64,000 bases of DNA from positions 37,820,001-37,884,000 of the forward strand of contig CM022665.1 of NCBI GenBank assembly GCA_012295275.1, written 5' to 3'. A program made the position numbers and the translations under genes. Below the pieces are notes generated by a model, which made no database searches, had not been told where the DNA came from, and worked only from the letters and a program-made list of their open reading frames with translations. Positions 29,345 through 46,600 of the stretch are shown here, one piece after another (positions within the stretch are counted from its first letter, which is position 1; each line of letters begins with the position of its first letter). This DNA comes from Chrysomallon squamiferum (lineage: Eukaryota > Animalia > Mollusca).

Positions 29345-32300
29345 CTAGTGAAAATAAAAATATATTAAACAAAGAAAAGAAAGGTGTATACTAATTATTC
29401 ATATGTCGAAGTGTAAGAAGACTTTTTTTTATTTATAAAGAAATTATTAATTAAAAAAAATCATTAAAAACGACCTCTGGAACTTCCACCCTTCTTGTAT
29501 TCCTGATGTCTCCAACAAGACACCTGATAAAATAGACATTAAAATGTAATAAAATCTTCAGATAACAATGGTAATAGTCGTTATCAAAAAAAAAAAAAAA
29601 AATGAATTTAAATTTATTTATTTTACAGAACAACTCATTGAACATTTGATTTATTAATGATAAAAAAATAGATGAAAATTTCATAGAATATTTTCTATGG
29701 GTAAATTATACAACTCCATTTATAATTTACTGAACAATACAAGAAAAATTATTATTTCTACTGAAGTATAATTATTATTCTTATATTATCTAATTATATA
29801 AATATGAAAATGAACTATGTGTAATATACCTGTCCATTAAAGAGCGTTCTTAGGTATGGTTCGTAACTCAAAACAAGTCTTTCAAGATGTGCATTTTCTA
29901 TGTTTTCCACACTCCTAAAACAAAATTAATATAAAAAAAAAAAAATTAAATGTTAATATTAAACAATACATCAAAAAACCTATTAAATATGTTATATGGA
30001 ATGCATAACCATTTTCAACCTGTATTCACAAAAACTGAACGGAAATCAATCTACAGAGATATTTAAACCTTTGGACATAACAATAAAGGTACTGTGGCCT
30101 TAATATTTATTGGGTATCCAAGAACTTTTAAGTGATCACACCTTCAGAACTGAAATTAATCCAACAATATTGTTTTCAATTTAGCTGGATTTTGCAGAAG
30201 AAATGGAAGAATCTATATACATTTAAATAAAAGGACTGACTAAGTGTACAGTTAGCATGAACAAAATATCTATACTTGACATAAAAACATACTGAATACT
30301 TACTTTATTTGTTTAAGATTTTTAATTAGTTCGGTGAAATTAAAATCTGTCCCCAAACTAGAATTTGCTGCATTAACATCTGAGTCATTATTTACAGAAA
30401 TTTTGTGTTCTACTGTACTTATGAATGGACCACAACTCTCTTTCAACTGATCGCATTCAACATGAGTTTGGTCAATTTCTGGAAGTTCATCCACTTCATT
30501 TGACGGTTCAGGTACAGGACAAATCTCTGTCAGCCTTTTCTTCCAGCGATCACATTTTTTGAAAAATATTTCTGGTAACTTTTCATCATCCTCTTCTGAA
30601 ATTACATTCTGCTCATCATTTAAAGTGGAACTGTTATAGCAACAGTCTAGTGATTTCTTTATCTCTTTAAATTCTGATATGTCTGGCAAACTTTGAGGTT
30701 CCTGGAAATAGTTTGCATCAGTGTGTTTTTTTTTCTTCGGAACATTTTTCTGGTGACCCTGGAAAACATGGAATTTTTTTTCTTAGACTTTTCTTCTGAC
30801 CAGTTCATACCACTCTTTTCTGTCCAACAAATTCCTGCAGTTTTGAAAAACATGGAATGCTGAGACTTTTTTTACATCACTAGATGCTTTTGTTCTTCTT
30901 TAAAGAACTGTTATAGCAGTTTTCATCTCTTTAAATTCTGAACCGGCTTTTCCTGGAAATAGTTTGCATCAGTGTGTTTTTAACATTTTCTTGACAAGAA
31001 TCTTTTGTTCTTTCGACTCTGAACTTAAAAACATCTGTCTGCTTTTTTCATCACTAGACCTTCTGACCAGTTCATAGATATCCGTCTTGACAAGAATCTG
31101 ACTCTGAACTTTTATTCTCTAAATGCAGTTTTGTTGTTTTTTTTTAGAAAACATTGTGATTGTAGGTTCTGAGCTACTTGAAGTACCTGCAGAATTGTCA
31201 GAAATGCCCTTATCTTGTTCTGTAGTATTTAAAGTGGAACTGTTATAGCAACAGTCTAGTGATTTCTTTATCTCTTTAAATTCTGATATGTCTGGCAAAC
31301 TTTGAGGTTCCTGGAAATAGTTTGCATCAGTGTGTTTTTTAACATTTTCTGGTGACCCTGGAATGTAATTTTTGTTCTTTCGGACTCTACCACCTTTTGC
31401 CAACATACCTGCTGAAAAACATGGAATGTTAGACTTTTTTTCATCACTAGACTTTTCTTCTGACCAGTTCATAGAACCGCTTTGTCCGTCTTGACAAGAA
31501 TCTGACTCTGAACTTAAAACATCTGTCTGCTTGCTCCCACAATATATCTGACTTTTATTCTCTAAGTGCAGTTTTGTTGTTTTTTTAGAAAACATTGTGA
31601 TTGTAGGTTCTGAGCTACTTGAAGTACCTGCAGAATTGTCAGAAATGCCCTTATCTTGTTCTGTAGTATTTAAAGTGGAACTGTTATAGCAACAGTCTAG
31701 TGATTTCTTTATCTCTTTAAATTCTGATATGTCTGGCAAACTTTGAGGTTCCTGGAAATAGTTTGCATCAGTGTGTTTTTTAACATTTTCTGGTGACCCT
31801 GGAATGTAATTTTTGTTCTTTCGGACTCTACCACCTTTTGCCAACATACCTGCTGAAAAACATGGAATGTTAGACTTTTTTTCATCACTAGACTTTTCTT
31901 CTGACCAGTTCATAGAACCGCTTTGTCCGTCTTGACAAGAATCTGACTCTGAACTTAAAACATCTGTCTGCTTGCTCCCACAATATATCTGACTTTTATT
32001 CTCTAAGTGCAGTTTTGTTGTTTTTTTAGAAAACATTGTGATTGTAGGTTCTGAGCTACTTGAAGTACCTGCAGAATTGTTAGAAATGCCCTTATCTTGT
32101 TCTGTAGTATTTAATTCTGTGTGGATACCATCTGAAAAATCATGTCTATTTGGAGAGAAAAAGCCCCACCTACTTTCTGCACTGCTTGAATGACCTTTGT
32201 CTTCATCTGATACCGATGTTTCTGAATTACAATATTCAGTCCGATATTCATTTTTAGGACTTCTGGAACGGGAAAAGCACTTTTCTTCTGTTTTAGTAAC

Positions 32301-35300
32301 ATCTGATTTGGCTTCATTTAATGCGTTCATTTTGAGAACAGTAAACTGTTGATTCTGACTTTCAGAATAATCTGACTGCATTGAATAGTCATGCTCAGTG
32401 TTACAAACATTCAGTTTTTTATCCAGTGTTTGCTGAATTGGCTTACAATGTTCCCCATTAGATTTTGACACAGTTGGTCCCATTTTTCTCTTTTTAGTTT
32501 TGGATAGTTTAGGTCCACTCTTTTTTATTCTAAAAATTAAAAATATTAATAATAATCCATTAACATTTTTAAGTGTCTTTTTTAAATAAATACTATGCTA
32601 ACTGAAATAAAATTCCTCCTTAATGATTCTAAAATCTGAATTTTCACAAAACAAAACTTTACAATAATTAATGGTATTTGTTTCATAATAATGAATTTTA
32701 ATTTTTTTTTTGGGGGGGGTACGTTAAACATGTAATTACATTGCAAAATATTTTAACTGACTATAACTCAGTGGTATGCAGATTTGAATGAATATTTATC
32801 ATATTTTAATACAAACAAAACATTTGTTACCAATATGGCTGCATACAAGGAGAAAAAGGTATGTGCTTACAATACTTATAAATAGCATACATGCTTTTAA
32901 GTGTTCTTTTCCGTTTGGTACTTAAAGAATCTTCTGGTGCTGAAGTCGATGTACTTTCTATTGCTAAAGACTCTGTGGCTGCAGCAGCTTCATTACTGTT
33001 AAAACTTGATGTAGAAGGAAGATTAGGATCAGGAATATTAGGTGAAGTCTGCACAGGTGCCTTCTGGAAGTAATTACTAATGCTGACCCTCTGACTCTGC
33101 TGTGGCAGTAACTGCAAAAACAGCACCACCATTTAAATAAATACATAAAATATTACAGGAAATACAAATAATTCCTGAAAAGTTCAGAAAATTGCTGAAC
33201 TGAAAGTAATGTGGCTGAGTTGGTGACTGTCCAAGGAAAACCTAGACATCCACAGAGCCAATTAAGTGTCCATAGAAAGAGCAAACTGTAATATTAAGGG
33301 CATGCTTGTTTGCTGATTAGGCGATAACAGTGTAACTGAAATGACTTTTGCACCCAAATTTGCTCAGTTTTGGAGCAAATGTTCATAGTGTTTTGTAAGT
33401 GAAATTAAAAGACAGTGTTTAGATCTGTGTATGTGGATTTATTCAACCACATAAGTGCCACTGTGTTCACCTTTCAGGATGTGTATGCATGTGATATATT
33501 CCAGTCATATGTGAAATTTAATCTTGTGCTCAATGTGCACCTATTGAAAAACATTACAAACTATTGTTCCAATCCAGAATATATATATATATTTAATTTA
33601 ACACTGAATAAATGAATGCATTATCTTCACCTCAGTATTTATCAATATTTACTGGGCATCAAACATAAACATTTTGTGTAATGATTCTTTCTGAGAGAAA
33701 ATAAATAAGCAGTTATAAATGATTTTTTTTTATACACTGATTTTCAGTTATATATATATTACCTGGTTCATGTTTTGCTGTGATAAACTCTCCAGTGGGT
33801 AAGTGTAAACAACCAGTTTCTCACTGTGAAGAGTCAGGTTTCTGTACCTTGGTGTAGCTAAAACAAACAAAATAATAAAAAAATTATATATTAAAATATT
33901 CTAGAAAATCACTAATCTCAAATGCTGTTCTTTCAAATGTTGAAATACTGAAAAAATAATTTTTATTTTTTTAATGTTATCTTACATTTGATTATTTTAG
34001 AATGATTGATATCTAAACTCTCTCTTTGTAGTTAATCCTTTAAAATATATCTTTGGTGATACAAAGAAATGTTGTACAAATATATTATGTATATTTCAAA
34101 ATTATGTTTCATTAGCTTTTTGCCATTCTTTGTTAATTAGTAATGAAGTATAATAGTTAAAGAGTACACTTAAAAAATATCTGGGTGCTACCATTTTTTT
34201 TTGGTTGCAATATCATCATATACAGGGAAGAGAGATTTGCTCTAGTTTATTTCAGTCATGTCAGAAGAGATACAGTCGGTCTGTCTGGTACATAGTCATA
34301 TTACAATTCCAGTTGTGAAAGTGAAAAACAGTGACATTTATGTGCTTTGTAAAAGTATTATTTTGTCATAATTTGTTATTAATGATAGGCTGCTCAAGCC
34401 AAATAAACTAATACATTTTGAGTCCAAATAGAGACACTAAAACACCTTTATCATGGCATTATCAACAGCTGATAATTCATGTTTCTGATTTGTTTGCCCC
34501 TAAAATATGTATGCACTTGAATTTTTATGTATTTAAGTAACTGTCTAAAAGAATGCAATAAAATTACTTTCAGTATCATCACTAAAACTTTCAAAAATGT
34601 TAGTATCAGTTATTACAAGTATGAATTGTTATTTCAGAACAGTGAACCCTTAATTTGTTTGTTTACCATTTCCTTCATTGGAACTGTGTTTTTGAGACAA
34701 ATTAGATGGAAGTAAACAAAATTGATTGTCTTCTTTTTGCTTGAAAGAATAGCCAATACGAACCGTACTGCCTACAAAATAAATAAAATTAAAACATAAG
34801 TAAAATTTTTTTAAAAATCCATCCATGGAAAGTGATAAAAAAAAATTTCATCATTGCACGATCAATTTTACTCATAATGTCAGAAGAATCAACATCTATA
34901 AAATGTACCTTAATGTTGGGCAATGAAATTTATAAAGCAACAAATTCTATTCCTGAAAAAGGTATTTTTTATAGCATTATTACAGTCCCAGTGATACATA
35001 TCAAAGTTTATAACAAATGACTTTAACGATCAATGCATTCAATCAGTTTTCTTTTTCAAAAAAAGTAAAAATAAAAATAATAACAATAAATAAATCAAAT
35101 CAAATCAAGTTTAAAAAAAAAAAAAAATCTATTTAAATTTACCAGTTCTACTTTTTAGTTTACAACAGTTACATGAAACTTTTTATTTATTTATATATTT
35201 TTTCATTTTGGTGCATTCTTTTTAATGATTTGGTTTCCACAGATAATTTATTTATTGTTATTATTATTACTTATTTATTTATTTTATGCTTCTTTACATA

Positions 35301-36449: not shown

Positions 36450-37100
36450 AATAGCACATTCACAAACCCTGACATATAACGTTTTTACAATTTTCTTTTT
36501 TGGCATATTTGAACTGTTTTAACGTCCCGCTTTATAAGAATGAGTTATCTCCCTTAATAGATAGAGGGAGTGAAAATTGTTTATTTGCAACTGAAGAAAC
36601 ATTTATCAAATACGCAAATATTTTTAAAATTTACTGGCTTGTTTGTTTAATAAATAAACCTTTAATAAAAAGTGTAGTTTAAAAAAAATTGTTGTTGTTC
36701 AAATAGTAGTTTTAAACTATTTGCTGTTTTTAAAAACGACTGATAAAGGTAAATCCTATTCCACTCATGAAAAAATGAATAACACTTTTGTAAAATATCC
36801 GACCAATCACGTTTGTAGCTACAGCTGCAAGTACGGTACAAGGTTATATTTCATCAACTGAATAACAAGTGCTGTTAGAGGTCTCCGACCAAAAAGTATT
36901 TTGCATAGAGTGTTTGGTGTAAGTAAATTTAATTCGTAAAGATGAATTCATAACATTGTGATGCAGAAAGTCAGGTCTAAAGGCTAGTAAGTAGTAATAA
37001 ACTGAATAAACATATGATCATGATATTACAACTTACAGTGGCAGCAATTACGTGATCACGGTGATGTATAGTCGACTTACTGATAATCCTATATTGATGA
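36450..37100. promoter_or_regulatory. Putative bidirectional promoter region for SLX4IP (-) and the uMKKS/MKKS unit (+)
   Basis: Lies between divergent genes and is locally richer in CpG. CCAAT at ~36803. Plus-strand GTAAGT donors at ~36919 and ~36986 are candidates for the end of a non-coding first exon. Position is inferred only. Confidence 0.4.
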
Positions 37101-39970
37101 CAATAAATTAAAACGTTTGCATTAATTTAAGTATATTATTGTCAGTCTGCATGAAGTATAGTAATATCATAATGCTTAATGATTATGATTTAGAACTAGA
37201 ATATAATAAGTTCATAAAACTCAATGATAATAAGGTCATGACTCAAGTCACTCATGGTTACAGATATTCAGAAAGTATAGAATTAAAGTATTTATTTATT
37301 TATTTATTTAACAGCAATGATAAAAATTAGTGAAGCAATTTAATTTTTGAATATTTGAGAAATATGTTGGTTTATGTTCTTGGCAAGTCATGAATGTTTT
37401 AACCTTCTGATTTACAGTTACTATAGACTAGGTTACGTAGGTACTCCATAGTGATTTTCTGTTGGCGAAAACCACGATTGACTCCTAACTACAACTGTAG
37501 ATCTTTTTATTCTGATTCCACTGGGGAAGAAAACTAAAAGAAATAAAAAGAAAAGAAAAAAACTGAAGTTATCAGTGAAATAATTTCAAAGTTATATTTT
37601 TAAAGTATTTAATTTTTTGGTGCTGTTTTCAACAATTCAGGGCCCATTCTGATGCAAGATTCACTCTGACAAAGCTTATTTCATAATATGTTATACTATG
37701 TGTTACAAATATGCATTCAAATTTATTATTATTATTTTTTTTTATTTTTTGTACCTCTTCAAAATACATTTCCACTGATATATGAAGCCTAGGGCTGGTA
37801 AAAATTATTCATTTTCGCTAGGCCATTCACAATGTAAAAAAGTCAAATCTTTTAAAATTCACAACACTGCTTTTACTTGTACTACAAATGTAGCTTTTAT
37901 ACTGTAATAGGGCTGGCTTTTCAGTCTGTCAAAACTTGTACAATGTCAGTAATGTAATCAAACTGTACCATCACAAAATAATAAACAGTTTGGATTTCAG
38001 GCATTGTTAACCTGGTATTAGTTTAACTTAAACTCCAATCCACTATACATTTACTAGAAATTCATAAATCCAAAACAAAAGAATAAGTCATATAAAGATT
38101 TAAGATCTTTTATTTTATAAACTAAAAGTTAAAGAAAAACTAATTTTATATTTGAAACAAAAAGAATACAGTGTTAAAAACTTAACTGTTTGTTTTCAGT
38201 AGTCAGGAATTATTTTATACTGCTAGTATTATGAATATATTTTCAAAGTGAAAGTTCACAGATCCCACAATGTTTATCACTGATTGAACAGACAAATGAA
38301 CCACATTTCATCAGATTTTGACACAAGAATTAACAGATTAACAGTGTTTCATCAGACTTTACAATTCTTTTTTCATTGACTTCTTGTCAAACTTTGACAA
38401 CTTTCTGTTTGATGAACAGGTTTGTGTGGTGACTTCTAATCAGATTCTGACAATTGTCTGTTCTATGACATCTTGACAGACTCTGATGAAGAAATATATA
38501 CAAAAACCAAATGAAATATGTTTTGAAGTGTACACTATTGTGAAGAAAAGGTGTGTTCACCTCCCTTAAACATAAAGACCATTGTCTTCATATAATATGT
38601 CAAGAATTAACTGACAACTTGTTTATTACAACAACAAAAAAAGAAGAAAAAAAAACTACACAGCTGGACCAAGCCCTGTTTTGTAAAGCCAAAGGTCACT
38701 GATAAATTTTTTTTTTAGTTCTCATGAAAATACAATCTTGTTTTCAGAGTTTGGTGTCATCTAGCTGATACCCAGATTAATATCTGCAGAATCACATGAT
38801 GAAAACAAGTTGTTTGCACACTAATTAAACATAGTTTCATTTCAGTACTAATTGGAGTAAAAAGATGAAATACATTAGAAAATGTGAAATGTTAATCATT
38901 TGGAGAGGGGGGTCAACATTTTTTTCTCTGACAAGTTGCAGTTTTCGTAAGCATTATTGGTTGTAAAGGCTATATTAGTATATAATAATAAAGATGACTT
39001 GTACCATTTCCTCATGAGAGCATGGCTAAAAAAATGTCAAATGTAACATGTGACTCAATAAGGAAATTTGTCCTGAGTTATTATTTATTGTACATGTACT
39101 ACATGTAGTAAATTTTGAAGACTGTTTCATACATAATAAGCTTAAAGTTAAATTTCCAATATTTATTTGCAAGGCAGTGCCACAACAGCAGAAAAAATCA
39201 AATAAAAAGCTAAATGCAACTGAATAAATGATCATAAATGATAAGACTGTTTTTAGATCACAATATCCATTCAAAAACTAAAGTCACAAGACTGGATTTT
39301 TCACTTTTTGGGCCATCAGAATACACTGCTAAAACATTTCACAGATTTTGCGCAGATAGCCTCCAGTTATTGCTAACATTGTACCAAGAAGTAATGTAGA
39401 AGATTTATTAACCAGTCACACAATGTGTACATAACTGACTCCAGTATCATTTCATCCCATTTTTAATCACTGAAAAGAATTATCATTTTGATGAAACAAA
39501 GACATCAAACTGTTTGGCTGAATTTGTTTATAGGATGAAAGGTTGAAGAATTAACCCTGTGATTGTAAACAAAGTCATTTTTTCTACACACAGTCATAGA
39601 TTCTTAACAAACTGCGATTAAACACTTTCACAATACAAGGTAACATTCATGCAACAGACAGAAAGATATGACTTCAGATATTTCATTTATGCAGTATTAA
39701 TTGAGATAGTACCTCAAACAGAAGAGAAAAAAATCAAATGTTCCAAAGTCAGTAAAAACAGTTCAATATAATATGGCAAACCAAAAATACAGTTAATTGT
39801 TTCATGATTAGGTAGAGTGAAACAATTTCACATCAGATAACTTAACTAGATGTTTAAATGATGACATAGTTAGTCTTCCTTCCTAAATATTTAAATGTGA
39901 CTGTGCAGTCAGTAGTATATTGTATTTAAAATGTTTTTATTTAATTTTTGCAGATTGTTATGAGCTCAAA

Positions 39971-40159
39971 ATGAATGCTTTTCAATCTTTGTGGAGTCGC
40001 TATAAAGTTCTGATTGTTATGATTCCATCCATGGTTTTAATCCATTATGGATGGCTTCAGTTACAGTATCATCCTCCTGTTGAAGATGCACCATCAAAAC
40101 CTGTTAAATTGTTTGGCATAACATTCAAGACAGCAGAGGAACCAGCATCTAAGAACTAA
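39971..40159 (+). CDS. 62-aa microprotein, uMKKS1-like (upstream ORF of MKKS)
   Basis: MNAFQSLWSRYKVLIVMIPSMVLIHYGWLQLQYHPP... aligns with recalled human uMKKS1 MSLRNLWRDYKVLVVMVPLVGLIHLGWYRIKSSP (LW..YKVL.VM.P...LIH.GW). Acceptor TTTTTGCAG ends at 39953, A at -3, donor GTAAGT at 40198. Confidence 0.85.
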   Translation: MNAFQSLWSRYKVLIVMIPSMVLIHYGWLQLQYHPPVEDAPSKPVKLFGITFKTAEEPASKN

Positions 40160-40556
40160 CTTAAATTTTAACCTTTTTGTAAATATTTGAAATAATTGTA
40201 AGTATTTGTATTTAAATGTTTAGAATATGATGTTAAAACATGTTAAAAAGTGAAACTGGTATTTAAAAAAGCAATATGTAAATATGTATTTATAAATCAT
40301 AAATGCCAGTATTATTGAATGTTTGTAACCTGCAATAGATTAAGATAATTTATATAGAATTTAATATTATCACCCCCATCCAAACAAAATAAAATATATA
40401 TATATTGTTTAGTAACAATCACTTAAATTTCAGATTATCAAAATTTAAAGTTACTTTTTGTTTACATTGTTAAATGTTGTTGCACATTTTATATATCTGT
40501 TCTGTTGGATTGTTATGATTCTGATTTTTTTTTTTTTTTTTTTTTTTTTAGAAAAA

Positions 40557-40745
40557 ATGTTTAGGAAAATAAAGTTTATCTATCAGCAATCAGCAGCATG
40601 GGTATTCCACAATAAATTGGCAGGATTTGTGGGGATTTTTACAGCAGTGTATTTGGCTACCATTCCTTTCAATCGTCCAAAATTGGAATTGTCGGCAGAG
40701 AGAGCAGAACTTATTAAAAAAGCCAGAGATAAAATAAAAGACTGA
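40557..40745 (+). CDS. 62-aa microprotein, uMKKS2-like (second upstream ORF of MKKS)
   Basis: MFRKIKFIYQQSAAWVFHNKLAGFVGIFTAVYLATIPFNRPKLELSAERAELIKKARDKIKD has a basic N-terminus, one hydrophobic helix and a charged tail. AWVFHN...GIFTAVYLAT parallels recalled human uMKKS2 SWIRKN...ISFIGVHLGT. It has its own poly-T/AG acceptor at 40551 and the same position as uMKKS2 between uMKKS1 and MKKS. Confidence 0.7.
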   Translation: MFRKIKFIYQQSAAWVFHNKLAGFVGIFTAVYLATIPFNRPKLELSAERAELIKKARDKIKD

Positions 40746-40995
40746 AATTTCTAGTATATTTGCTTATTAAGGTTATATAAATTTTGTTTATTTAGAGAAT
40801 ATATTTTATTAGTATCATAAATTAAAATGAACATAAAGATTAATAATATTTAATATTTGTTCTTCAGATGTTTTAAGTGTAATGCTGTTGCATTAAATTA
40901 ATAACAGTATTACAAAAACTTTACCAGTATTTCTTTGCTTTTTGACTTTTATGACATTTTGACTTTTAATGTTGTTTTTGCAGTTTTAACCAGAA

Positions 40996-43690
40996 ATGTC
41001 ACGTCTTTTATCACAAAATATCAGAGGACCAAGCAAACTTCATTTGTGTCACCTGGATGATGCTAAAACACGGGCCTGTCTGATTCAGTTTGGTAATCTC
41101 ATAGGTTCATGTCGAGGTCCCAATGGAAAGGTCAAAATGATCCAAAACAAAGTGGGTGGCCATTTGACCCTTACATCATCATCATCCAGGCTTTTGGCAT
41201 CCATGTCGTTTACTCATCCAATTCTGCAAATAATAGTTGGTAGCACACAAAATCATTTAGCAAATTATAAAGATGGTGGACTGCTGGTGTGTCATTTTTG
41301 TCTTCTTTTGTTAGAGAGTTCTATTGTACAGACTTGGAATCGGCATCTTGTTGTTGAAGTGTATGAGAAATGTTTGGCAAAGATTGAAGAATATTTGAGT
41401 TCTTCAGACTGCACTTGTCAGTTTGACATAAGTTTTTCAAGCATTGAGGAGATGATGTCATTCTTGCATTGCATGCTGATGTCGAAACCATTGTGTTGTT
41501 TAAATGGTAGCAGACTTGATCATTTATCTAAGACAATTCTAAAATCATTTTTAAATTCAGTTCCAGAGAATACAGACAGAACATTTTTTTCTGACAGGAT
41601 GTATATTCAGTGCATTTCGAACTGTGATGTGCTTGACACCAGATCTGAGAAAGGGATTTTGATGTCTTGTCCTGAGTTGTCTTCTGTTTTTGAACAGAAT
41701 GTTGAACTGAAGAAATGTGTCAATGTAGCAGGGTTTTCAAGAACCAAAGTAGTTTTGGTGAATGTCTCTATGTCTGGAGATGCAGAAGAGTTGATGAATG
41801 TCAAATATGAAGCTGATACAGATAATAACATGGAGGAATTTTTGTTGAGTGCGATGCTGAAAATGTGTGGCAGGTTAGTGGAATGTGGTGTTGGAATGGT
41901 ATTGTCACAGAAGGTTATGCATCCCCAAATAAAGCTGTTTCTAAAACTTAAAGGTGTTTTCTTTATAGACAGGATTGGAGCACATATGATGCCCTATCTT
42001 AGGGACCTCACAGGTTTGTTTTACTTGTTCATTATTAACATTGATTAAATTATTAAAACTTTTAAAAGTTGTTTTGTACTGTTACCTTAAAATGTACATC
42101 AGTAATGGCTGTATGAAATCTCTGACTGAAATATAAACACAACAAAAACACTTTAATGCAAATAGTTTTGAATTATATATATAATTATGTTGCTTCTGTT
42201 TGTTTTTTTTTTTTTTTTTTTTTTTAAATGAAATTGATACAGCATATGAATTATACAGCATTTTTTAAAAACAATGTTCATTTTAAAATATTTATTCAGA
42301 CCTGAAATTTGAAAAAGTGAAATTTCATCTTACTCTTTAAATACTGTTGTATTTTAACAGGTGCAACTCCCATTAGTTCTGCATTAATCTCAGATTTTGT
42401 ATCATCCTCATTTGGCTGGTTGGATGATGCTGTTCACTGTGTGATCAATGAAAAAAGTTACGTTCATCTTAGAAATACAGACAGTCCTGTTGTGTCTCTT
42501 ATTCTGTGCAGTCCATTGGAAGAAGTTTGTAGCGAGCTTCAGGTACATTAATTTGTAGTGGTCAAATACTAATTATAGTAATCAATAATTTATGTGTATG
42601 TTTTTAAAACTATTAAGCACTTTTACCTATGATGACTTTATAATAATTAAAATTATGAGAAATAATTAGATGTCCTAATTAAAATACATTAATATTGTTT
42701 TTCCATGTGATCTTAGCAGTATTATTTTTGCTGTGCTAATTAATATATTATTATTATTATATGTTGGTTTGTCCTTTCTGTTCTTAAAGGTACTTAGAGA
42801 TTATTTATCTATAAATTTTTAATAAACTTCTGTTTCCAGTGTTTGTGCTCATCATCTTTGATGACTTTAAAGAGGCTTGTTAACAACAGTTCAGTTTTGT
42901 GTGGAGGAGGATGTTGGCAGAGTCACCTTGCAGCTTTCTTACGATCCCAGGTACAATTGACAGATATTATTTATGAAATAAATACACAAAATATCTCTAC
43001 TTTTTCAAATAACTTTAGTGTGGGCTTTTTCCTGTCAGAATGTTTTGATCTTAAATTACGTTTCTCAATTAACATTTAATGTTATGTCTGAGAGATCATA
43101 TTTTATTTTATTGCTTTAGAATTTATTTCTTGATACTGCATAATCTCAAATGAAGTAAAACAATTTCAAGACTATTTTTATGCTAATGCACCAAACAATG
43201 CATTTGTGTTGGGTTTTTCTTGCATGGATTCAGAAAAAATACATTTCACTTTTTATTTCTTCAGAAAGATGACATCTCAAAAGAAATGGATGTTCCAGAA
43301 CTACAGGTTTCAGAAATTGTTGAAAATTTTGCCAGATGCTTGGAGAAATCTGCTACAAGTCTAACCCAGGATCAGAAAATACACAAGTTGGATAATAATT
43401 ATCACCATCTATGGAAGACATCTCATGGTGGGACATTGGAAAGCAGAAGAAATGTTCTTACGTGTTCCTGTGGTCTCTTGTCAACTGACCAGTCTGATGA
43501 CCTCAAATATTTGGGCCATGCCACTTCTGAAAAGTCTGACTGCAACTCAAAGCTTTTGTCCAGCCTAAATGTAGAAAAAAGTCCACAAATTTTAGACTGT
43601 CTGGCTACTGTAATGAGTGCTTTACAAACAGCTGTTTATACATCAAACAGCATTTTAATGACACATCAGTTTATTCAGGATCAAAGTTAA
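40996..43690 (+). CDS. MKKS: McKusick-Kaufman/Bardet-Biedl syndrome 6 chaperonin-like protein
   Basis: Exons 40996-42013, 42361-42542, 42840-42950 and 43265-43690. MSRL start, GPNGKVKMIQNKVGGHLTLTSSSSRLL..THPILQII..QNH, SQKVMHPQIK..FIDRIG, LCGGGCWQSHLAAFLR and CSCGL match the MKKS group II chaperonin-like family. The layout of one large plus three small coding exons is as in vertebrates. Confidence 0.95.
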
Positions 43691-46600
43691 TCTCTGCCTT
43701 CAGAATGTAATTTAGACATTTGAAAAATTATAAAACAACCTCCCCACACAAAAAAACCAGCAAATTAACAATACTGTCCATATTGTTGGAATTGAGTGCA
43801 CTGTATGTTTTATAAACAAAATTTAGTTGAAGTGAATTTATATATTTGCATTAAAATTTGAAAATATTCTAGACATGAAAGGTAATTAGCATCTACTTCA
43901 ATTAAAATCAGTTTACAGTTTTGATAAATAAACTAATCAGAATATGTGGTTTAAACTGTGTAAATTGTTTTCATCATAAATGTAATTATTCAAAACAATT
44001 TTCATATTTTTCAAAGGGACATTTAACACTTTTGTCCATAACTGCAAGATTTGTGGGGTTTTTTTTGTTGTTCTTCTTCTGTTCAAGCAGTTTATAATAA
44101 TTATAATATTTGGAATTTAAAATTTAAAAGCACATAAAGATGTATTTAGTTTGGATGAATGCAAGTTTGTGAAACAATCGAATTGGTAAATTGTATATTT
44201 AAGAACCATTTACAACATGTTTTTGCCTGAATGGATAATTTTTGCTTTCCTTATGCCATTTTGATACTTAATGCTTTAATATTTAAATATTTTATCATTT
44301 TTATGTTCATTTATATCTATTTTGAAACACGATTTGGTTCTTAATATATATTAAGAAAGGCACTGCCTCTTGTTCAAAAGGGGAAACTGTTACAAATGTC
44401 ACTTCTTTTCAGCATATTTTAAAAATACATTTAACACTTAAATTCACTTTAATAATTGCTAACCACTGCTGGTATGAAATGAAATTTTAGTGTTTGTGTC
44501 ATCGGTGTGTATTAAAGCTGAGTATTTCTTCTGCTTCGGTTTTTGTTTTGTTGTTGTTAAAATGATTATTACAAAAATCAGTATTCAAAATAAGTTATTA
44601 ACACAATATACATACTAACATGTGTTGCTATTCCTAAATAACTGCATGCAGAAAAACAAATATTGCATTAAGTAACTGGTTTACTTTCATCCAAAGGAAT
44701 AATCCCATAGGATGAAAACAATATAATTTCAAGGATAAAATAAGAGTGAAAAAAGTACACAAATCGGGTAAATTTAAGGAATTGTGAATTCATTGTTTTA
44801 TTTTGTCAAAAAGAAAAAGCAGCTGCATACAATGTATTTGAAATGCATTATGGCACAACTAGAAATGAAAGATTTGAAATACATTGTAAATATAAAATGC
44901 TGTGGAGATGAAACATATTTCAGAACATGAAATTTAGTACAGGTCAACCATCACTAATCCGGCACAAATTCTGACTACTCATTTCAAATTTCCTCAGTTA
45001 CCTCACTAAACTATCTTTAAAGGAGCTTCTTGCTGCATGAATATTGTTGTTATCATTTTATTTTTCCATTTATTGTTACAGTCTGTTAATCCTAACCATG
45101 GTTTCAATGAATAAAGGAAGTGCTTCTCGTATAAAGAAGAACCACCACACATTGTCTGTAAAAGATAAACTTGTATAAAAAAACTAAAAAAACTTGACAG
45201 TGGTATCAAAAGTAGGACAAAGTGACGAGTTGTTCAAATACATTTATTTGGATCTAACCACTCTGGCATCCTGCAGATCCCAAATGGTGCTGGATAAATG
45301 ATGGAAGACCTGTACTTTTAAAAATTATAATGAAAATTCTTAAAAATATATATGATGTGAGACAAAAGTGAACAAGTAAATATTACTTATAAAACCTACA
45401 TACACGTCTGAAACATATACTGAAATAGTTAAATACCCTTCAGATTATCTGAACAAAATTTATATCCATTAAGAAAAGCCAAACACCACAATTGTTTACA
45501 CACAGATGACCATCACCAGGAAAGGTTGGGTTTTATTTTTTTATTTTCTTTCATAAACATAAACCTTAAGATTGTCTTTTTCTATAGCATCAACCACAAT
45601 ATTTCATACATATACCGGGATAAATTTCAGTTCACATATCATAGATACTGTGTATCACACTATATTGCACAGATGGTTTCAGTTTCCATACCATACCCCA
45701 GGTCACAATTCCTGCAACCCAAAGATTAGTTTTCAGTTAATAAAAAATATATTGTATACATTTTTAATTTGCATAGCAAACCATGTAACATTTATAAACA
45801 ATTTATGTAACAAAACAGAGTTAAGTTTAAAATTGCATATCAAACCATGTAAGTGTTTTGTACATGCTAGACCATGTAACAATATTTTGACACAAAGTTT
45901 CAATTCAAATAATAAACCATAAGACAAAATCATAATGGCTGCCTGCTGTATGTATTCCAAAAAGGATAATCTAACTCTTGCACAAGAGTACAGGCTTCAA
46001 AGAATACCTTTTCAAATCAAATTAGTCAAAAGCATTAATTAAGCTTTTTAAGCATAAAATTAAAATAAAGCACTAAATAAAAGATTTCAGAACGAATGTT
46101 AGTATAACAAGTAATTAAGTACATGATTTATGCCAAGTAATTAACTGGCCATTTACTGGCAATGAAATTTCAATTTATTTTCTTATTATGCAAAAAACTA
46201 AACACAGTTCAAAAACGTATTATTATTTTAAAATTTGTTTGTTTAACAGTTTCTTCCATTATTTTTTTTTTTTATGACCAATCATAAGTAACAACAAGAC
46301 TTACAATAACTATGCAAAAGCATTCACAATTTTTCACAATAAAGGTATAATTTAAAATGACAGAACTGCTTAATAAACCAGTTATTCTCCATTTCAAGCA
46401 TCTAATAATACTAAATATGTGTTACTCAATGTAATAAAATTCAAACATGCTGGATGAATGTTTTGGAATGGTTCGTTTCTACAACTTGTAAGTACTTGTA
46501 AAAAAATATAAAACTTAAAAATATATATAAATGTTAACATTACATACATCACTCACATTTCACACAAGAACAACTAGATATAAAAATCTGGATAAATTTG

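What the first reader, a model, noticed from the sequence alone, without database searches (positions are those of the whole stretch)
39940..40998. Each of the three cistrons has its own splice acceptor just before its ATG
Seen: pyrimidine-tract AG acceptors at 39953, 40551 and 40983 lie 17, 5 and 12 nt before the ATGs of ORF1, ORF2 and MKKS. Candidate donors follow the stops (GTAAGT 40198; AG|GTTATA 40772), and ATTAAA signals at ~40821 and ~40892 lie between ORF2 and MKKS. As recalled, human uMKKS2 shares an exon with MKKS. Inference: here one leader exon could be spliced alternatively to make any of the three ORFs first, so splicing plus polyadenylation would resolve the operon into differently translatable mRNAs.
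Basis: partly seen in the sequence, partly recalled or inferred. Interest (0 to 1): 0.7.

Follow-up and report, generated by a model that had tools for sequence, protein, structure and literature searches.

The report
Three-protein MKKS mRNA, exon per gene
In this probable snail, two tiny membrane-protein genes and the cilia chaperone gene MKKS each begin in their own exon, but RNA assemblies show these exons joined one after another, likely into one shared message much as in humans, with no sign so far that splicing separates the three genes.

Summary
The three acceptors, two donors and two ATTAAA are at the stated places. RNA contigs from 4 of 4 runs (one study) use donors 40198 and 40772 and acceptors 40551 and 40983, always in series: ORF1 exon, ORF2 exon, MKKS exon, one unbroken contig per run. 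No leader-to-40552 or leader-to-40984 join, no ORF2 skipping and no contig over the ATTAAA stretch was seen, but contigs drop minor isoforms. Use of acceptor 39953 and the leader's identity were not seen directly. Two ATTAAA in that intron are at chance level (84 of 167 matched tiles). ORF1 is uMKKS1-like, ORF3 is MKKS; ORF2 is uMKKS2-like only by position and weak likeness. Spliced spacers are 43 and 38 nt, so an intron in them must end near an ATG; both junctions lie under 55 nt behind a stop. Best reading: constitutive splicing to a tricistronic mRNA, downstream cistrons likely reached by leaky scanning or reinitiation. A second animal's locus has the same predicted introns. The human polycistronic locus is published, and this scan found the invertebrate tricistron before on other DNA. 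Regulated skipping or intronic polyadenylation stays open but unsupported.

The parts
36811..36992 (+). Candidate non-coding leader exon region, donors GTAAGT at 36919 and 36987 (another donor-like site at 36749); untested
   Evidence: Sequence. Contigs have 80-108 nt upstream of 39954; that would start at 36811-36839 with donor 36919 (no ATG) or 36879-36907 with donor 36987 (2 ATGs). Not distinguished from an unspliced extension upstream of 39954.
39934..39953 (+). Predicted acceptor before ORF1 (13 of 16 pyrimidines, CAG)
   Evidence: use not seen directly
39960..39974 (+). 4-codon upstream ORF whose stop overlaps the ORF1 ATG
   Evidence: translation not shown
39971..40159 (+). ORF1, 62 aa, uMKKS1-like single-pass membrane microprotein
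   Evidence: Atlas feature hits 0.94-0.95, 203-213 of 256 features shared, one cluster named LOC128706665 homolog; 9 relatives at E<=1e-3, one of them a repeat artefact; 14 of 22 identities by eye with the human 63-aa sequence printed in PMC12313729
40198..40551 (+). Intron between ORF1 and ORF2 (354 nt); donor 38 nt after the ORF1 stop, acceptor 5 nt before the ORF2 ATG
   Evidence: Join 40197|40552 in 4 of 4 RNA runs (table 7); distances
40557..40745 (+). ORF2, 62 aa, one hydrophobic segment and basic tail; probable uMKKS2 counterpart
   Evidence: Covered by RNA contigs. No Pfam, homologue or Atlas hit of 0.9 or more. Small ORFs at the same position in L001 and L002, without significant pairwise likeness. 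8 of 26 ungapped identities by eye with the human 50-aa sequence, no E-value
40772..40983 (+). Intron between ORF2 and MKKS (212 nt); donor 26 nt after the ORF2 stop, acceptor 12 nt before the MKKS ATG
   Evidence: Join 40771|40984, GT..AG, in 4 of 4 RNA runs; depth 0 inside
40821..40897 (+). Two intronic ATTAAA hexamers (40821, 40892); candidate polyA signals, no use shown
   Evidence: Chance-level count. 40821 has a T/GT-rich downstream stretch in the top ~10% of 334 such hexamers, but so do hexamers in MKKS coding introns
40984..42013 (+). First MKKS/BBS6 exon, ATG at 40996
   Evidence: Pfam Cpn60_TCP1 E=1.2e-31; 71% identity to a Gigantopelta aegis protein named MKKS-like; RNA cover and join to 42361
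42361..44530 (+). Further MKKS exons 42361-42542, 42840-42950, 43265 onward (stop 43690) and 3' UTR with ATTAAA at 44511
   Evidence: Model gives an open 578-aa frame; contig lengths in 3 of 4 runs imply an end at 44504-44522 under this model, the fourth at 43882. Only the first of these joins was seen in RNA

Best explanation
The three acceptors mark ordinary introns, two of them shown to be spliced to the donor just upstream, so the main product is likely one tricistronic mRNA (uMKKS1-like ORF1, ORF2, MKKS) whose downstream cistrons are probably reached by leaky scanning or reinitiation rather than freed by alternative splicing. Shown: joins 40197|40552, 40771|40984 and 42013|42361 on one contig per run. 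Inferred: the contig stands for single molecules; a leader exon is spliced to 39954. The acceptors lie close to the ATGs because the introns sit in very short spacers (43 and 38 nt after splicing); each junction is under 55 nt behind a stop, a layout predicted to escape nonsense-mediated decay if all three ORFs are translated. By analogy with human, the two small ORFs would be mitochondrial membrane microproteins that also hold MKKS output down.
For:: 4 of 4 RNA runs give exactly one contig (mean word depth 25.5-49.7), unbroken across both spacers, with one partner only at 40552 and at 40984, and nothing on 40772-40983; contig lengths of 3 of 4 runs fit a full-length message ending at the ATTAAA at 44511. 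L002, an intron-free MKKS contig from another animal, carries an ORF1 relative (hhalign probability 92.5, E=5e-7), a second small ORF and MKKS with spacers of 58 and 31 nt; the 40983 tract (12 of 16) is as strong as those of the three MKKS coding introns (10, 10, 14); stop-to-junction 38 and 26 nt. PMC3951408 (passages) describes this decay-immune layout for human polycistronic transcripts and lists MKKS. Reviews (passages) report a long human transcript with uORFs plus MKKS and repression of MKKS by the uORFs.
Against: Only assembled contigs from one study were available; they drop minor isoforms and contigs under 150 nt, and cannot show that all three ORFs lie on one molecule. The 39953 acceptor and leader were outside the stretch laid. 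MKKS sits behind 10 ATGs in the serial mRNA against 0 in a leader-to-40984 isoform, so even rare skipping could matter. Both introns falling in spacers has a chance of about 0.03 under random placement (post hoc), and the same predicted layout is kept in L001. Translation of any ORF was not tested.
Confidence: 0.65

Rival explanations
1. One reading: a leader exon is also spliced directly to 40552 or 40984 as a regulated, functionally important route, giving ORF2-first or MKKS-first mRNAs (for instance in ciliated cells).
For: Each cistron begins in its own exon with a good acceptor; skipping both small exons would leave 12 nt and no ATG between 40984 and the MKKS start. The layout is predicted in L001 too (acceptors 18 and 7 nt before the ATGs), and L004 has an acceptor-like tract abutting its MKKS ATG.
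Against: No such join and no break of the contig at either acceptor in 4 of 4 runs. Conserved intron position is the default here: the first MKKS coding intron is also at the same place in L001. In human the reported alternative isoforms drop MKKS and keep the microprotein, the opposite direction (PMC13577902, section 10).
Confidence: 0.18
2. Intronic polyadenylation: the 40772 donor competes with a polyA site at 40821 or 40892, giving a short ORF1+ORF2 mRNA beside the long one, the counterpart of the human short isoform. Can coexist with the best explanation.
For: Human MKKS makes a short uORF-only transcript by alternative polyadenylation (review passages). Donor 40772 departs from consensus at +3, +5 and +6 (AAG|GTTATA). 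40821 has a T/GT-rich downstream stretch like that of 44511. In L001 the spliced and unspliced readings end the ORF2-like frame in the same way.
Against: Hexamer count at chance level; depth 0 over 40815-40973 in 4 of 4 runs (a short 3' tip could have been pruned); no AATAAA or ATTAAA in the matching L001 intron; the donor's consensus match (6 of 9) equals that of the 42951 coding-intron donor.
Confidence: 0.3
3. The contig is an assembly merge of two overlapping transcript types (ORF1+ORF2, and ORF2+MKKS from an internal start), with no three-cistron molecule.
For: Short-read contigs cannot phase three exons (tool note).
Against: Needs an unseen 3' end and an unseen internal start; the same three-ORF order appears on L002 from another animal.
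Confidence: 0.06
4. A true operon resolved by spliced-leader trans-splicing at the three acceptors.
For: An acceptor shortly before each ATG is the operon signature in nematodes (established knowledge; PMC7986045 abstract in listing).
Against: Both downstream acceptors are joined in cis to donors of this locus in 4 of 4 runs. I recall no established spliced-leader system in molluscs; PMC7986045 does not mention molluscs at all, so it neither supports nor excludes one.
Confidence: 0.02

Closest known systems
Human MKKS (BBS6) polycistronic locus with uMKKS1 (63 aa, Q9HB66, micro-MKKS63) and uMKKS2 (50 aa, V9GZ13); Akimoto et al. 2013 as reported in PMC11837024 and PMC12573267 (the original was not held)
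   Same: Order small ORF, small ORF, MKKS on one spliced transcript; ORF1 clearly related to uMKKS1; a further tiny upstream ORF (human uMKKS0 is reported; here 39960-39974, likeness not tested).
   Different: Here ORF2 and MKKS are separated by a spliced 212-nt intron, leaving a 38-nt spacer; in human uMKKS2 and the MKKS start share an exon with the polyA sites between them (recalled, not checked). The human short, MKKS-less isoforms were not seen here. ORF2 likeness to uMKKS2 is weak.
Decay-immune human polycistronic transcripts such as SNURF-SNRPN (PMC3951408)
   Same: Upstream ORF stops less than 55 nt before the next exon junction (SNURF 45 nt; here 38 and 26 nt), and all other junctions lie in coding sequence.
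   Different: Three cistrons; whether junction-dependent decay works the same way in molluscs was not tested.
Nematode-type operons resolved by spliced-leader trans-splicing
   Same: An acceptor shortly before each downstream ATG.
   Different: Acceptors are used in cis with local donors and the cistrons stay together.

Membership tests
MKKS polycistronic locus (uMKKS1-uMKKS2-MKKS) | Main ORF is an MKKS/BBS6 chaperonin-like protein | tested here: met
   Pfam Cpn60_TCP1; 8 hits, best 71% to a protein named MKKS-like; 578-aa open model
MKKS polycistronic locus (uMKKS1-uMKKS2-MKKS) | First upstream ORF is a uMKKS1 homologue | tested here: met
   Atlas 0.94 to LOC128706665 homolog cluster; relatives and alignment; by-eye match to sequence
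MKKS polycistronic locus (uMKKS1-uMKKS2-MKKS) | Second upstream ORF is a uMKKS2 homologue | tested here: inconclusive
   No database hit; position, size and hydrophobic segment fit; pairwise E not significant
MKKS polycistronic locus (uMKKS1-uMKKS2-MKKS) | The three ORFs lie on one spliced transcript | tested here: met
   Serial joins on one contig in 4 of 4 runs; contig-level only, single molecules not seen
MKKS polycistronic locus (uMKKS1-uMKKS2-MKKS) | Short uORF-only isoform by alternative polyadenylation | tested here: inconclusive
   No contig over the hexamers, count at chance; contigs cannot exclude it
MKKS polycistronic locus (uMKKS1-uMKKS2-MKKS) | Microproteins translated, mitochondrial, and repressing MKKS translation | not testable with these tools
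   Needs ribosome profiling, proteomics or reporters
Polycistronic locus resolved by alternative cis-splicing | Each cistron has its own usable acceptor | tested here: met
   40551 and 40983 used; 39953 predicted only
Polycistronic locus resolved by alternative cis-splicing | One donor is joined to more than one of these acceptors | tested here: not met
   One partner per acceptor in 4 of 4 runs; holds for major isoforms in these samples only
Spliced-leader operon | Downstream cistrons receive a foreign leader at their acceptor | tested here: not met
   Letters before 40552 and 40984 are the upstream exons of this locus; 39954 not seen

The most novel reading that the evidence does not exclude
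The exon-per-cistron layout is a conserved switch in molluscs: the ORF2-MKKS intron decides, by splicing, skipping or intronic polyadenylation, whether a cell makes only the mitochondrial microproteins, all three proteins, or an MKKS-first mRNA free of ten upstream ATGs, and such rare isoforms supply most MKKS in ciliated cells.
Probability: 0.2. Interest if true: 0.65.

Novelty: new variant of a known kind. Interest (0 to 1): 0.35.

Why it matters
It fixes the exon structure of an invertebrate MKKS tricistron with RNA evidence and shows that the main message keeps all three cistrons, so translation of second and third ORFs over ~40-nt spacers is the question to test. If rare skipping or intronic polyadenylation were shown, it would give a clean natural example of an animal polycistronic gene choosing its cistron by RNA processing and could explain how a ciliopathy chaperonin is made from behind repressive microprotein ORFs. 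On present evidence the splice layout is mostly ordinary gene structure in a locus type already known from human.

Tried and rejected
PolyA-signal enrichment in the ORF2-MKKS intron: chance level; downstream elements do not single out 40821 from hexamers in coding introns. Second AG at 40993, 2 nt before the MKKS ATG: not used in the contigs. Share of sampled words in RNA runs (0.63-0.65) as a test of the 39953 acceptor: models predict 0.647 against 0.672, too close to tell. Homologue searches for ORF1 and ORF2 by shared words: nothing. ORF2 in Pfam and Atlas: nothing reliable. P0002 is a tandem-repeat hit and P0009 has a long extra N-terminal part; both were left out of alignment A1 (7 of 9 hits used). 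A locus scan with the ORF1 alignment could not run for lack of a conserved stretch. No whole genome is held. Of 4 MKKS loci fetched, L003 shows no small ORFs of this kind upstream and L004 has only 75 nt upstream. Lack of cover on 40772-40983 counts only because the contigs join across it. Akimoto 2013 was not held; the supplement of PMC7530721, which may give the taxonomic range of the MKKS uORF, could not be read. Ten paper searches listed no paper on the exon layout or isoforms of an invertebrate MKKS tricistron; most subscription papers are not covered.
Full report
Observation. Acceptor AGs end at 39953, 40551 and 40983, with 17, 5 and 12 nt to the ATGs at 39971, 40557 and 40996. Donor-like sites stand at 40198 (ATT|GTAAGT) and 40772 (AAG|GTTATA), and ATTAAA at 40821 and 40892. 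Of 2551 ATGs on both strands of the window, 71 have a YAG with at least 12 of 16 pyrimidines within 20 nt upstream; three of three is about 2e-5 with a threshold chosen afterwards. The polyA hexamers are not special: 84 of 167 GC-matched 212-nt tiles and 22% of 2000 shuffles of this intron hold two or more, and the three MKKS coding introns hold 2, 3 and 1.

The genes. ORF3 is MKKS/BBS6: Pfam Cpn60_TCP1, 8 homologues, all 5 named ones molluscan, best 71% to Gigantopelta aegis; so the window is probably from a gastropod. A four-exon model gives 578 aa without internal stops. ORF1 (62 aa) is uMKKS1-like: Atlas feature scores 0.94-0.95 with 203-213 shared features, including a cluster named LOC128706665 homolog, 9 HMMER hits of which 8 are small look-alikes and one a repeat artefact, and 14 of 22 identities by eye with the human 63-aa peptide printed in PMC12313729 (passage). 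ORF2 (62 aa from 40557) has no hit in Pfam, the word search or the Atlas. It has one hydrophobic segment and 8 of 26 ungapped identities by eye with the human 50-aa peptide; the assignment rests mainly on position.

RNA evidence. Five runs hold the region, four on record as RNA, all four from one study and kept only as assembled contigs. Laid on 40550-42130, each of the 4 RNA runs gave exactly one contig (depth 25.5, 49.7, 49.6, 38.9). Each joins 40771|40984 with GT..AG ends; each has, before 40552, the last 30 letters of the ORF1 exon (join 40197|40552); each continues after the MKKS donor into the 42361 exon. No contig lies on 40815-40973, and there is no second partner at 40552 or 40984. 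The contigs have 324-352 nt before 40552, that is 80-108 nt more than the 244-nt ORF1 exon; this fits a leader exon, but the letters were not shown, so use of acceptor 39953 and the leader's place (donors 36749, 36919, 36987, or an unspliced extension) remain open. Under the exon model the contigs of 3 of 4 runs end at 44504-44522, at the ATTAAA at 44511; the fourth ends at 43882. Limits: the assembler discards words seen once, simplifies the graph and drops contigs under 150 nt (bioRxiv 10.1101/2024.07.30.605881, passages). A skip join or short 3' end that survived would have broken the contig (inference), so such isoforms are not major in these samples, but minor or tissue-specific ones are not excluded and I could not calibrate the threshold. 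No DNA run was laid as control; the window itself holds the skipped letters.

Why acceptors sit near ATGs. After splicing the spacers are 43 nt (38+5) and 38 nt (26+12). An intron anywhere in such a spacer ends within 20 nt of the ATG about half the time. What needs explaining is that introns lie in the spacers at all: about 0.03 under random placement in the 476 nt before the MKKS ATG (post hoc). Both junctions are under 55 nt behind a stop, the decay-immune layout described for human polycistronic transcripts, MKKS among the predicted ones (PMC3951408, passages); that explains why such introns are tolerated, not why they arose. Inheritance from once separate genes with an intron just before the start is a plausible origin (inference).

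Related loci. A scan of metagenome contigs with an MKKS alignment gave 4 loci. L002 is intron-free across MKKS and carries an ORF1 relative (hhalign probability 92.5, E=5e-7), a 63-aa hydrophobic ORF and MKKS, spacers 58 and 31 nt: a second tricistronic message. L001 is genomic and shows a predicted acceptor 18 nt before an 87-aa hydrophobic ORF, a donor at its end and the best acceptor 7 nt before the MKKS ATG; the contig ends before ORF1 could be seen; its intron has no AATAAA or ATTAAA; its first MKKS coding intron is at the same place as here. So the exon-per-cistron layout is probably shared with another animal at 35% MKKS identity, but so are ordinary intron positions. L004 has an acceptor-like site abutting the MKKS ATG and too little upstream DNA; L003 shows no such small ORFs. 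The three ORF2 candidates are not significantly alike to the window's ORF2; L001 and L002 give E=0.006 pairwise.

Mechanism. Shown: serial cis-splicing at 40198-40551 and 40772-40983. Inferred: one tricistronic mRNA of about 3.1 kb as main product; ORF1 first after a 4-codon overlapping ORF at 39960; ORF2 and MKKS reached by leaky scanning or reinitiation, all three starts having A at -3; MKKS lies behind 10 ATGs and is likely poorly translated, as reported for human (reviews PMC11837024 and PMC12573267, passages; PMC7530721, passages; PMC13577902, passages and sections 10-11). In human the reported alternative isoforms remove MKKS (3 of 7 annotated isoforms encode only the 63-aa protein), the reverse of an MKKS-first isoform.

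Known and new. The polycistronic MKKS locus is published for mammals (also PMC6886504, PMC4568590, PMC10908861, PMC8448870: passages). This scan's earlier AI notes report the invertebrate tricistron in at least three other genomes; they are leads, not support. Two look-ups for notes on splicing or polyadenylation of it found none, and ten paper searches listed nothing on the invertebrate exon layout. The new detail is the RNA-confirmed intron between ORF2 and MKKS, where human has, as I recall, continuous exon. Verdict: observation confirmed, interpretation partly supported; new variant of a known kind; interest 0.35.

Noticed in passing
window 39960-39974: A 4-codon ORF whose TGA overlaps the ORF1 ATG; it is the first ATG after the 39953 acceptor.
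   Followed up: partly
L001 500-760: The predicted donor falls inside the last codon of the ORF2-like frame, and spliced and unspliced readings end the protein identically; the best acceptor is an AAG 7 nt before the MKKS ATG. Prediction only.
   Followed up: partly
L004 40-78: An acceptor-like T tract and TAG directly abut the ATG of a distant MKKS-like gene.
   Followed up: no
window 31119-32597 (minus strand): A long Ser/Lys-rich open frame with a near-perfect tandem repeat of several hundred bases and decayed copies at 30300-31100; probably an exon of a gene divergent from the MKKS unit.
   Followed up: no
window 36800-36812: CCAAT and CACGT motifs just upstream of the candidate leader exon; may be part of a promoter, possibly bidirectional.
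   Followed up: no
L003 3700-4780 (minus strand): Pieces that look like a protein phosphatase 1 catalytic subunit (recalled likeness) lie head to head with an MKKS-like gene that has no evident small ORFs upstream.
   Followed up: no
window 41106, 41109, 41181, 41885: Single-letter differences between RNA contigs and the window in MKKS exon 1; likely alleles, no matched DNA laid.
   Followed up: no
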